A stretch of DNA of 64,000 nucleotides from Escherichia coli (GCF_009931435.1 NZ_CP043414.1), one strand, 5' to 3'. Positions 10,856 to 12,005 are shown, numbered from the stretch's first letter. A program made the numbers and translations. The notes: a model not told the origin generated them from the sequence alone.

Positions 10856-10864
10856 ACGTAAAAA

Positions 10865-11833
10865 TTATGGAGCAACGTGATGGTACGATTCATTCCATTC
10901 TTCGTTCTTTCTGAGCATTGCGTTCAGGATAGTCAGCAGCTTGCGTATACAGGCAACCAGCGCCACTTTTTTGGGTTTTCCTGCGGCAAGCAGTCGCATG
11001 TAAAACACCTTTATTACCGGGTTAAAGCGGGTTGCGACAAGCGCTGCCATGTACAGGGCTGTTCGCACACCAGCCCTGCCGCCAAAGATGGTTCGTCGCC
11101 CTCTCATCGTGCCCGAGTCCCGGTTTACTGGAACCATACCGACAAGCGCACTGATTTCACGCCTGGAGAGGTTACCCTGTTCGGGTACTTCCGCCAGCAG
11201 CGCAGCAGCCGTCATGGTGCCAACACCTTTAATATTGCTCAGTCGCTTAGCAAGCTCTTTGAAGTGGCTATGGATATGGCTGTTCATGTCAGCATCTAGT
11301 CGCGCAAGCTCGTCTTCCAGTGCTTTGATGATGATATTAATGCTTTTCCTGTTCTATGGATGAGCAGGGTGCAACCGGTTTCTCTCGGCAACCAGCATCG
11401 TAATCAACTGCCGCCTACGAACTACCATTGCAGTGAGAACCTGACATTCAGTATCCGGCAGTGCTCTGATAAAGCGTTCCCGCTCCGGATGCCGGTTGAG
11501 AACCTCAGCCATCTGGTAAAGCACTCTGGCATCAATACTATCAGTTTTCGCGAGGTATCCCATGGTGCGGGCAAAGTCACGAGCTTGTCTGGGGGTAACC
11601 ACGGCAAGCTCAAAACCTTCTGCCTGAAGCGCACAGACTATGGCGGTTTCAAGTCCTCCAGTGGCTTTCATTAAAACCAGCGCAATGGCGTACATTCTCA
11701 ACTCAGCAATGATGGCCTCAAAGCCATCACTGTCATTGCCGACAGAAAATTGTTCAATAGCGCTGCTGGCGGCAATATCCAGTATCGCTTTCGAAACATC
11801 GATACCCACACAAAGTGAACCTGGCTGACTCAT
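10865..11833 (-). pseudogene. IS110-family transposase interrupted by a single in-frame amber codon (TAG at 11356..11354)
   Basis: ORFs 11851..11354 and 11287..10865 share one reading frame; the 22 codons between them are open apart from the TAG. Confidence 0.7.
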
Positions 11834-12005
11834 GATTACCCATCCTTGCAAATGCGTTATGGCGTACTGACAACTGTTCGGGTTTCAGATGAGTGGCTCA
11901 GTGTATGCGCCATTCGCTGAGCTACGGGCTATGAACCCCTTGAGGGATCGGGCTGCATACACCTTGCCAAATCTAATCACAGTTATTTTAACCAATTGTC
12001 AAGAT
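11834..12005 (-). ncRNA. Candidate IS110-family bridge-RNA region (structured 5' non-coding arm); hypothesis only
   Basis: 8 bp stem (11901-11908 with 11955-11962) enclosing a smaller hairpin; TTGACA hexamer on the minus strand at 12002..11997; analogy to IS621-type elements. Confidence 0.25.

What the first reader, a model, noticed from the sequence alone, without database searches (positions are those of the whole stretch)
10856..12005. IS110-family element with a single in-frame amber codon and a structured 5' non-coding arm (candidate bridge-RNA locus)
Seen: two minus-strand ORFs (11851..11354 and 11287..10865) share one frame and are separated only by TAG at 11356..11354, so the transposase (about 328 codons) is knocked out by one nonsense codon, suggesting recent inactivation. 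The roughly 170 nt between the transposase start and the next gene is non-coding and contains an 8 bp stem (11901-11908 with 11955-11962) enclosing a smaller hairpin, plus a perfect TTGACA on the minus strand (12002..11997). Established: IS110-group elements such as IS621 encode a bridge RNA in their 5' non-coding end that programs target and donor recognition. Inference: this arm could encode such an RNA; the element sits between two paralogous zinc-ribbon genes, which may reflect a sequence-specific insertion.
Basis: partly seen in the sequence, partly recalled or inferred. Interest (0 to 1): 0.6.

Follow-up and report, generated by a model that had tools for sequence, protein, structure and literature searches.

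The report
Dead IS110 element with bridge RNA
This is an old, inactivated copy of a known kind of jumping gene (an ISKpn42-like IS110 element) that still carries a recognisable gene for the 'bridge RNA' that once guided its insertion; it is real but ordinary and already annotated in public E. coli genomes.

Summary
Window 10844..12010 (minus strand) is a 1165-bp IS110-group insertion sequence plus one duplicated CT core, inserted between two overlapping zinc-ribbon genes of an E. coli genomic island next to cobUST. An IS-free allele fixes the ends. The 175-nt left end encodes an IS621-type bridge RNA. A covariance model built only from relatives in other bacteria hits 11979..11835 at 157 bits (E about 1e-33). 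Across relatives, the two target-guide segments co-vary with each element's own flanks (permutation: 1/5040 and p = 5e-5). In the window copy the right target guide matches its site perfectly (7/7). The left target guide does not (4/7, core 0/2).

"Recent inactivation by one stop codon" is not supported. All alleles at this locus also carry Lys in place of the catalytic Glu of the DEDD motif. The element is a single chromosomal copy in all 665 complete E. coli genomes that carry it. TAG (468 genomes) looks ancestral; TTG (193) and a Tyr allele look like secondary re-openings. All 10 differences between the two haplotypes are non-synonymous. The TTGACA is not conserved and has no −10 partner. 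RefSeq already annotates this as an "IS110 family RNA-guided transposase" pseudogene. Interest is low.

The parts
10844..12008 (-). The IS110-group insertion sequence proper: 1165 bp, ISKpn42-like. The left end starts TGTATCTTGACA at 12008. The right end finishes ...CAAGACAGTTG at 10844.
   Evidence: Comparison with the IS-free allele L003. The same ends occur in 12 or more relatives.
12009..12010 (-). Upstream copy of the CT core dinucleotide (AG on the + strand).
   Evidence: The empty site has a single CT (CCTC-CT-GAGTT). The occupied site has CT on both sides.
10842..10843 (-). Downstream copy of the CT core dinucleotide.
11835..11979 (-). Bridge-RNA gene: target-binding stem-loop plus donor-binding stem-loop. 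The transcript ends are inferred.
   Evidence: Covariance model R1, built from 14 relatives and excluding this locus, scores 157 bits, E = 1.7e-33, full length. It is the only real hit in the 64 kb.
11951..11975 (-). 5' strand of the basal helix of the target-binding stem-loop.
   Evidence: RNAalifold consensus, 97% of cells paired, two compensatory pairs.
11886..11911 (-). 3' strand of the same basal helix.
11940..11948 (-). Left target guide position (AUCCCUC + AA). It is a poor match to the left flank TCTCCTC + CT: 4/7 in the guide and 0/2 at the core.
   Evidence: Of the relatives scored, 8 of 13 have CU at the core-binding positions.
11917..11923 (-). Right target guide AGCUCAG. Its reverse complement is CT+GAGCT, the first bases of the right flank (7/7).
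11926..11938 (-). Apical hairpin of the target-binding loop (GGGU-loop-GCCC).
   Evidence: Invariant pairs in 15 sequences.
11871..11877 (-). Left donor guide ACAGUUG, identical to the last 7 bases of the right end.
   Evidence: The corresponding IS621 sequence is ACAGUAU.
11845..11853 (-). Right donor guide AUUUGCAAG. It is the same sequence as in the IS621 bridge RNA and is partly complementary to CT+TGTAT of the left end.
11855..11868 (-). Small hairpin of the donor-binding loop. In this copy the first pair is broken: A at 11868 where relatives have C.
   Evidence: cmsearch alignment; alignment A4.
11985..11990 (-). TAAAAT, a conserved TAnnAT and candidate -10 box. TTGCTT would lie 17 nt upstream, but only across a right-end/CT/left-end junction.
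   Evidence: Invariant T21, A22, A25, T26 in alignment A4. This is inference only.
11997..12002 (-). Probably not a promoter element.
   Evidence: Not conserved: relatives have TTGGTT, TTGAAG, TTAAAT and others. No -10 lies at 16-18 nt.
10865..11833 (-). Recombinase pseudogene, 322 codons plus stop.
11354..11356 (-). In-frame TAG at codon 160. Relatives have CAG (Gln). Other alleles at this locus have TTG or a Tyr codon.
11666..11668 (-). AAA (Lys56) at the position of the catalytic Glu of the DEDD motif (IS621 E60).
   Evidence: Alignment A3. K is found in all 16 alleles from this locus and E in 102 of 120 homologues. The role of E60 is described in PMC11208158.
10463..10855 (+). Upstream zinc-ribbon gene (DUF7828/Zn_ribbon_11). 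Its last three codons and stop (10844-10855) come from the IS right end.
12019..12423 (+). Downstream paralogous zinc-ribbon gene. The insertion lies immediately upstream of its GGAGGAG ribosome-binding site.

Best explanation
Window 12008..10844 (minus strand) is a fossil copy of an ISKpn42-like insertion sequence of the IS110 group.

As in IS621, the element would have excised as a circle and transcribed a bridge RNA from its 175-nt left end. One internal loop of that RNA pairs with the joined element ends (ACAGTTG-CT-TGTAT). The other pairs with a target (here ...CCTC-CT-GAGCT). A DEDD/Ser recombinase exchanges strands at the CT core.

That is how the element came to sit exactly at the Shine-Dalgarno/overlap region between two zinc-ribbon genes, flanked by CT on both sides.

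The copy then died and has been inherited passively at this one chromosomal site. Its lesions are:
- Lys in place of the catalytic Glu (K56);
- CAG changed to TAG at codon 160;
- loss of the CU core-binding bases of the left target guide;
- a broken pair in the donor-loop hairpin.

Shown here: the boundaries, the homology, the RNA structure and the guide-to-flank matches, the lesions and the allele frequencies. Inferred: transcription, the promoter at the circle junction, and the order of events.
For: - Boundaries: the empty site in L003 defines the ends and the CT duplication.
- Protein: NF033542 scores 209 bits. Pfam PF01548 and PF02371 hit the alleles. Identity is 80-85% to ISKpn42-like transposases and 31% to IS621.
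- RNA: a covariance model built from relatives only scores 157 bits, E = 1.7e-33. 97% of structure cells are paired, against 26-43% when the partners are slid, and there are two compensatory pairs.
- Guides: right target guide versus own right flank scores 30/35 across 7 elements, against a permuted mean of 15.9 (1/5040). Left target guide versus own left flank scores 52/84 against 34.2 (p = 5e-5).
- This copy: right target guide 7/7, left donor guide 7/7, right donor guide identical to IS621's.
- ISKpn42 and ISEc32 are already listed with a left-end bridge RNA in Durrant et al. 2024, Supplementary Table 5.
- Decay: K56 in all 16 locus alleles, E in 102 of 120 relatives. Ala substitution of IS621 E60 abolishes recombination (PMC11208158).
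- Copy number: one chromosomal copy in each of 665 genomes.
- Substitutions: 10 of 10 differences between the two haplotypes are non-synonymous.
- Stop codon: TAG, TTG and Tyr alleles are all one step from TAG, whereas Leu and Tyr are two steps from the family's CAG.
Against: - The left target guide of this copy matches its flank no better than chance (4/7, core 0/2). Either it decayed after insertion or the insertion tolerated the mismatches. I cannot tell which.
- Structural covariation is thin (two compensatory pairs) because the helices are nearly invariant.
- No Rfam family matched.
- No expression data are available.
- The effect of Glu to Lys, as opposed to Glu to Ala, has not been measured for any IS110 enzyme.
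- TAG and TTG each occur on both haplotypes. This needs either recurrent mutation or recombination.
Confidence: 0.85

Rival explanations
1. One reading: an otherwise functional IS110 element that was knocked out recently by a single amber codon. Reverting TAG would restore an active, RNA-guided transposase.
For: There is only one in-frame stop. Alleles with an open 322-codon frame exist at the same locus. The RNA architecture, the right target guide and the donor guides are intact.
Against: - K56 replaces the catalytic Glu in every allele, including the open-frame ones.
- All 665 genomes carry exactly one copy, always chromosomal, and in the loci examined at the same site between the two zinc-ribbon genes.
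- TAG is present in 70% of carriers and on both haplotypes.
- All 10 haplotype differences are non-synonymous and several hit conserved residues (N80T, G10D).
- The core-binding bases of the left target guide are lost.
Confidence: 0.04
2. A non-autonomous but still mobilisable element. The ends and the donor-binding loop are the same as in intact plasmid-borne relatives. A related recombinase and bridge RNA supplied in trans could therefore excise the element, or recombine with it, making the locus a docking site for plasmids that carry ISKpn42-like elements.
For: The right end CAAGACAGTTG, the left end TGTATC and the donor-guide segments are identical in the window copy and in intact copies on E. 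coli and Klebsiella plasmids (L002, L004, L013). IS621-type systems catalyse excision and inversion between donor-type and target-type sites (PMC11208160).
Against: There is no evidence of loss or movement: one copy per genome, and the same site wherever the locus was examined. Excision needs a donor-donor or donor-target geometry that was not examined here. Nothing was tested experimentally.
Confidence: 0.1
3. Exaptation. The host retains the RNA, the N-terminal 159-residue fragment, or the re-opened K56 protein for some function, for example RNA-guided DNA binding without cleavage or regulation of the zinc-ribbon genes.
For: The locus is kept at 99% identity or more in hundreds of genomes. 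None of the 10 haplotype differences falls in the 177-nt left end. The open frame was restored at least twice (Leu and Tyr alleles).
Against: - Zero of 10 differences in the left end is not significant (about 1.5 expected).
- 10 of 10 non-synonymous changes argue against purifying selection on the protein.
- The guide core and a donor-loop pair are degraded.
- No promoter-like site exists in the integrated state.
- Most E. coli lack the element.
Confidence: 0.03
4. The 5' arm is native intergenic DNA or a host small-RNA gene, and the transposase merely inserted next to it.
For: None beyond its position between two host genes.
Against: IS-free alleles have the two zinc-ribbon genes overlapping with no arm present. 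The arm travels with the transposase in Citrobacter, Klebsiella, Xenorhabdus and Photorhabdus, and on plasmids.
Confidence: 0

Closest known systems
ISKpn42 (ISfinder; IS110 family, IS110 group). Durrant et al. 2024, Supplementary Table 5 list it as having a bridge RNA in the left end.
   Same: - 322-aa recombinase, 83% identical to a protein that NCBI names ISKpn42 (P0087).
- Same layout: long left end, very short right end.
- Bridge RNA in the left end.
   Different: - Below the identity usually required to count as the same IS (my knowledge of ISfinder practice: about 95% amino-acid identity or more).
- This copy is a pseudogene: TAG160, K56, degraded left target guide.
- I did not have the ISKpn42 DNA, so I could not compare ends or guides directly.
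IS621 and its 177-nt bridge RNA (Durrant et al. 2024, PMC11208160; Hiraizumi et al. 2024, PMC11208158)
   Same: - CT core.
- Near-identical donor: ACAGTTG-CT-TGTATC here, ACAGTAT-CT-TGTATT in IS621.
- Identical right donor guide AUUUGCAAGG.
- Left donor guide equal to the last 7 bases of the right end.
- Two stem-loops, each with an internal loop.
- Left target guide of 7 nt plus core, just 5' of a small GGGU hairpin.
- DEDD and Ser residues align, except for E60.
   Different: - Only 31% protein identity.
- Left end of 175 nt, against 191 nt.
- The right target guide pairs with 5 nt plus core, against 2 nt plus core in IS621.
- Much shorter hairpin in the donor loop.
- No convincing 5' stem-loop.
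- The candidate junction promoter sits differently.
- IS621 targets REP-like ATCAGGCCTAC. This subfamily has diverse guides, several of which target CCTCCT-type sequences.
Intact plasmid and chromosomal relatives found here: L002/L005 on E. coli plasmids, L004 on an E. coli plasmid, L013 in K. pneumoniae ATCC 13883, L009 in Citrobacter braakii, and copies in Xenorhabdus and Photorhabdus
   Same: - Same ends, same donor loop, same helices.
- 74-84% nucleotide identity in the arm.
   Different: - They keep Glu at the DEDD position and CAG at codon 160.
- Their guides match their own flanks (for example L022 at 9/9 and L015 at 7/7).
- Each has different guide sequences.

Membership tests
IS110 family (IS110 group) insertion sequence | Recombinase with an N-terminal DEDD RuvC-like domain (PF01548) and a C-terminal Tnp domain (PF02371). 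| tested here: met
   NCBIfam NF033542 scores 209 bits against a cut-off of 140. PF01548 and PF02371 are recorded for identical or near-identical alleles.
IS110 family (IS110 group) insertion sequence | Complete catalytic set: D, E, D, D and Ser (IS621 D11, E60, D102, D105, S241). | tested here: not met
   D12, D98, D101 and S240 are present. The Glu position is Lys56 (AAA, 11668..11666) in this and all 16 locus alleles. There is also an in-frame TAG. The element is therefore a member by descent but not a functional member.
IS110 family (IS110 group) insertion sequence | No terminal inverted repeats. Insertion is flanked by a duplicated core dinucleotide. Long non-coding left end and short right end. 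| tested here: met
   CT lies on both sides against a single CT in the empty site. The left end is 175 nt and the right end is 21 nt after the stop codon.
Bridge RNA (IS621 type) | Two stem-loops, each with a large internal loop, encoded in the non-coding end. | tested here: met
   Consensus fold of 15 sequences. 97% of cells paired and two compensatory pairs. A covariance model built without this locus scores 157 bits.
Bridge RNA (IS621 type) | The right target guide is complementary to the core plus the right flank. | tested here: met
   Window 7/7. Family 30/35 against a permuted mean of 15.9, with only 1 of 5040 permutations reaching it.
Bridge RNA (IS621 type) | The left target guide is identical to the left flank plus the core. 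| tested here: inconclusive
   In the family: 52/84 against 34.2, p = 5e-5. In the window copy: only 4/7 and core 0/2 (AA in place of CU).
Bridge RNA (IS621 type) | The donor guides match the element's own right and left ends around the core. | tested here: met
   Left donor guide ACAGUUG equals the right-end terminus (7/7). Right donor guide AUUUGCAAG is the same as in IS621, with CTTG complementarity to CT+TG of the left end.
Bridge RNA (IS621 type) | A sigma-70 promoter is rebuilt across the right-end/left-end junction of the excised circle. | tested here: inconclusive
   Two junction candidates exist from sequence alone: TTGCTT-17-TAAAAT and TTTACG-17-TATCTT. No promoter-like site is found in the integrated state.
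Bridge RNA (IS621 type) | The RNA is transcribed, binds the recombinase and is required for recombination. | not testable with these tools
   Needs RNA-seq, binding assays and recombination assays.
Rfam RNA families | A match to any curated covariance model. | tested here: not met
   Nothing relevant at E up to 10 in 10000-13000, and nothing at gathering score in the whole window.
ISKpn42 (same IS, in the ISfinder sense) | Near-identity of the transposase (about 95% amino-acid identity or more). | tested here: not met
   83% identity to the protein NCBI names ISKpn42 (P0087).

The most novel reading that the evidence does not exclude
The fossil keeps perfect family-type ends and a donor-type junction. 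It could therefore still be a substrate for intact ISKpn42-like elements arriving on plasmids, whose donor loop and ends are identical. It would then act as a fixed chromosomal docking or excision site for RNA-guided recombination, giving plasmid co-integration or deletion of the fossil, even though its own enzyme is dead.
Probability: 0.12. Interest if true: 0.35.

Novelty: already known. Interest (0 to 1): 0.12.

Why it matters
It matters little beyond annotation. The locus is a clean natural example of how a bridge-RNA element records its own insertion chemistry: the core duplication, and a right target guide that still spells out the flank. It also shows how such elements decay.

Two cautions for automated annotation follow:
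- An open reading frame at this locus, as in the TTG alleles that RefSeq calls an intact "IS110 family transposase", does not mean an active enzyme. The catalytic Glu is already lost.
- A single stop codon does not imply recent inactivation.

The small set of relatives collected here also shows that this subfamily uses a right target guide of 5 nt plus core, longer than in IS621. This agrees with the remark in Durrant et al. that some orthologues have longer right target guides.

Tried and rejected
- Rfam scans, permissive on 10000-13000 and at gathering score on the whole window, gave no bridge-RNA or other relevant hit. I built my own model instead.
- MAFFT alignment of the IS621 left end with this family aligned only the two ends reliably. 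The middle was mis-registered. I therefore compared with IS621 by motif, not by column.
- TTGACA at 12002..11997 as a -35 box: rejected. It is not conserved and has no -10 partner.
- RNAalifold's extra helix between UUGU and GCAA in the donor loop was dropped from the model, because those bases are the donor guides.
- I looked for additional copies or other insertion sites of this exact element in 5426 E. coli genomes and found none.
- L017 has an aberrant right end (ACAGATA) and its guides do not match its flanks. I kept it in the permutation test as a non-matching case.
- L002, L004 and L017 show a 1-nt register shift of the left target guide relative to the alignment columns. I did not re-register them, so the left-target-guide statistic is conservative.
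- Reconstructing the stop codon as Gln (the family state) turned out not to be what the open-frame alleles at this locus carry. They have Leu, or rarely Tyr.

Full report
**What is there**

The window is E. coli chromosome. The 1.5 kb around the finding is 100% identical to many complete E. coli genomes. There it lies in an island next to cobUST and is annotated "IS110 family (RNA-guided) transposase, internal stop", between a "putative zinc ribbon protein" and a "zinc-ribbon domain-containing protein". Translating 11851..10865 on the minus strand gives one frame with a single stop, TAG at 11356..11354. By homology the start is ATG 11833, giving 322 codons. The protein matches NCBIfam NF033542, "IS110 family RNA-guided transposase", at 209 bits against a cut-off of 140. 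Near-identical alleles carry Pfam PF01548 and PF02371.

**Exact ends**

About 3000 E. coli genomes have the two zinc-ribbon genes adjacent with nothing between them. In one of them (L003), gene 1 and gene 2 overlap. Read in the transposase sense, the site is ...TATTTCCTC-CT-GAGTTGTCC.... In the window the same flanks are separated by 1167 bp: flank-CT|TGTATCTTGACA...CAAGACAGTTG|CT-flank. So:
- The element is 12008..10844 (1165 bp).
- The CT core is duplicated, at 12010-12009 and at 10843-10842.
- The left end is 175 nt of non-coding DNA.
- The right end is 21 nt after the stop codon.
- The last three codons and the stop of the upstream zinc-ribbon gene come from the IS.

The 5' arm is therefore part of the mobile element and is not native intergenic DNA.

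**Relatives**

I found arms that are 74-84% identical, each attached to a related transposase, in these places:
- E. coli plasmids (L002/L005, L004);
- K. pneumoniae ATCC 13883 (L013);
- Citrobacter braakii (L009);
- ten Xenorhabdus/Photorhabdus contigs;
- decayed E. coli copies (L006, L007).

Nearly all have the same ends: CT|TGTATC... and ...CAAGACAGTTG|CT, about 1165 bp apart. The exceptions are the truncated or degraded copies (L007, L015, L017, L019). The proteins are 80-85% identical to the window's. One of them is named ISKpn42 by NCBI. IS621 is 31% identical. Durrant et al. 2024 (PMC11208160, Supplementary Table 5) already list ISKpn42 and ISEc32 as IS110-group elements with a bridge RNA detected in the left end.

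**The RNA**

A 15-sequence alignment of the arms (A4) gives a consensus of two stem-loops.

The first is a long basal helix (window 11975-11951 with 11911-11886). It encloses a large internal loop and a small GGGU/GCCC hairpin.

The second is a short helix (11883-11880 with 11841-11838) around another internal loop and a 3-bp hairpin.

On the 14 relatives alone, 97% of cells are paired. When the 3' partners are slid by 1-3 columns, only 26-43% are paired. Two pairs show compensatory changes. Covariation is thin because the helices are almost invariant, while the loop segments are hypervariable.

A covariance model built from those 14 relatives, with every copy of the E. coli locus excluded, hits window 11979..11835 on the minus strand. 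The hit is full length, at 157 bits and E = 1.7e-33. It is the only real hit in the 64 kb. Rfam has no matching family.

**Guides**

I used the IS621 reference sequences from the Durrant supplement and the base-pairing rules in the paper.

The hypervariable segment just 3' of the small hairpin always ends in AG. Its reverse complement equals CT plus the first five bases of that element's own right flank:

| Element | Guide (reverse complement) |
|---|---|
| window | CTGAGCT |
| L002 | CTTACAT |
| L004 | CTGATAT |
| L015 | CTTTTGA |
| L021 | CTTACAG |

Each of these matches its own flank at 5/5 non-core positions; L009 (guide CTTATTT, flank CTTATAT) matches at 4/5.

Over 7 independent elements, own-flank matches total 30/35, against a permuted mean of 15.9. 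Only the identity permutation, out of 5040, reaches the observed value.

The segment just 5' of the hairpin equals the last 7 bases of the left flank plus CU in most relatives (L022 9/9, L019 8/9). Own-flank matches total 52/84, against a permuted mean of 34.2, p = 5e-5.

The donor loop is nearly invariant. ACAGUUG equals the right-end terminus. AUUUGCAAGG is the same sequence as the IS621 right donor guide. The IS621 donor ACAGTAT-CT-TGTAT is almost the same as ACAGTTG-CT-TGTAT here. So this is an IS621-type bridge RNA. It differs from IS621 in three ways:
- a longer right target guide (5 nt plus core, against 2 nt plus core);
- a shorter donor-loop hairpin;
- no convincing 5' stem-loop.

**This copy**

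Its right target guide (11923..11917) matches its site 7/7, and its left donor guide (11877..11871) matches its right end 7/7. Its own RNA therefore plausibly directed the insertion.

Its left target guide (11948..11940, AUCCCUC+AA) matches TCTCCTC+CT at only 4/7, with 0/2 at the core. That is no better than chance for these C/T-rich flanks. Of the relatives scored, 8 of 13 have CU at those core-binding positions. One conserved pair of the donor-loop hairpin is also broken (A at 11868).

**Not a recent single hit**

1. In the alignment with IS621, D11, D102, D105 and S241 are conserved. E60 aligns with Lys56 (AAA, 11668..11666).
2. All 16 alleles from this locus in the protein database have K at that position. 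Of the 120 best homologues, 102 have E. Hiraizumi et al. report that E60 coordinates the catalytic Mg2+ and that mutating it abolishes recombination (PMC11208158).
3. A 61-mer around the stop codon is found in 665 of 5426 complete E. coli genomes. It is always present once and always on the chromosome. 468 genomes have TAG and 193 have TTG.
4. The TTG alleles sit at the same site and RefSeq annotates them as intact.
5. Relatives have CAG (Gln) at this codon in 87 of 120 cases. The alleles at this locus have TAG, TTG (Leu) or, once, Tyr. Leu and Tyr are each one step from TAG but two steps from CAG. TAG occurs on both haplotypes, window-type and L018-type. The most parsimonious history is CAG to TAG first, followed by secondary re-openings of the frame.
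6. The two haplotypes differ at 10 positions. All 10 are in the coding sequence and all 10 change the amino acid. They include conserved positions: G10D next to the catalytic Asp, and T/N80.

This is the pattern expected of a pseudogene drifting at a fixed locus.

**Promoter**

It also has no -10 box at 16-18 nt, and the scan finds no promoter-like site in the integrated left end.

A conserved TAnnAT (TAAAAT, 11990..11985) lies 17 nt downstream of TTGCTT, but TTGCTT exists only when the right end (..TTG), CT and the left end (T..) are joined. A second candidate, TTTACG-17-TATCTT, is positionally homologous to the IS621 TTGCAG-17-TATTAT promoter. Both are inference from sequence. They fit the published rule that excision rebuilds the promoter. 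They imply that the integrated fossil is probably silent.

**Neighbours**

The two zinc-ribbon genes are true paralogues (32% identity, E = 4e-17). The target, however, is a short motif (CCTC-CT-GAGCT) on the strand opposite the downstream gene's GGAGGAG ribosome-binding site. The paralogy of the genes is not what the element recognised. A Citrobacter relative also sits at ...CTCCTC-CT.

**Verdict**

The "recent single knockout" and "TTGACA promoter" readings are not supported. The element is a member by descent of a family whose mechanism and left-end bridge RNA are already published, and the pseudogene is already annotated in RefSeq. Novelty: already known. Interest: low.

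Noticed in passing
L008:1501-1561 (E. coli JJ1887). About 600 E. coli genomes fall in the 90-95% identity band.: A solo fragment of about 60 nt, 90% identical to the first 61 nt of the left end (CT-TGTATC...GCAGCC), after which similarity stops. 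It is unannotated and lies in another CP4-like island between an HTH regulator gene and an hha pseudogene. It is probably the stump of a second, older insertion of a related element.
   Followed up: partly
L006:1501-2275 (E. coli CFSAN061770 chromosome): Another decayed relative, 80% identical in the arm, with a frameshifted and truncated transposase. It sits between YfjI-family and Gp2-family genes of a different island. Its guides are those of the plasmid element L002 and match its own left flank poorly (4/7).
   Followed up: partly
window 10844-10855: The upstream zinc-ribbon gene now ends inside the IS right end (...AQQLS*). In IS-free alleles the two zinc-ribbon genes overlap by 13 nt, which suggests translational coupling. 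The insertion has uncoupled them, yet both genes stay intact in hundreds of genomes.
   Followed up: no
window 12010 with its left flank; L009 left flank: At least two family members (this one and the Citrobacter braakii copy) are inserted at ...CTCCTC-CT. That is the complement of a Shine-Dalgarno sequence, immediately upstream of a gene start on the other strand. Some guides in this subfamily may habitually target ribosome-binding sites.
   Followed up: no
window 12714-14810: A nest of IS debris right next to the finding: an ISL3-family pseudogene, fragments of another transposase, and an intact IS30 transposase gene (13656..14807, 383 aa) inserted into them.
   Followed up: no
window 2908-3111; 19603-41205; 50815-50904; 59240-59326: Rfam and ARAGORN context for the window: an IS102 RNA, four identical tRNA-Asn(GTT) genes plus tRNA-Ser(CGA), rseX and DsrA. 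This places the window in the asn-tRNA/cobUST region of the E. coli chromosome, a known hotspot for islands.
   Followed up: no
L018 (JAIJJM010000559.1, 'MAG: Collinsella sp.'): A 2.2-kb contig assigned to a Collinsella metagenome-assembled genome carries this exact E. coli locus, with the same flanks and only 7 differences. It is almost certainly a mis-binned E. coli contig.
   Followed up: no
P0117 (UniRef A0A6V7KTN7, Bracon brevicornis): A protein 81% identical to this transposase is filed under a parasitoid wasp. It probably comes from a bacterial symbiont or from contamination in the insect assembly.
   Followed up: no
L017:6972-8150 (Xenorhabdus budapestensis): This copy has an aberrant right end (CAAGACAGATA|CT in place of CAAGACAGTTG|CT), and neither target guide matches its flanks. 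It may be a rearranged or hybrid copy.
   Followed up: no
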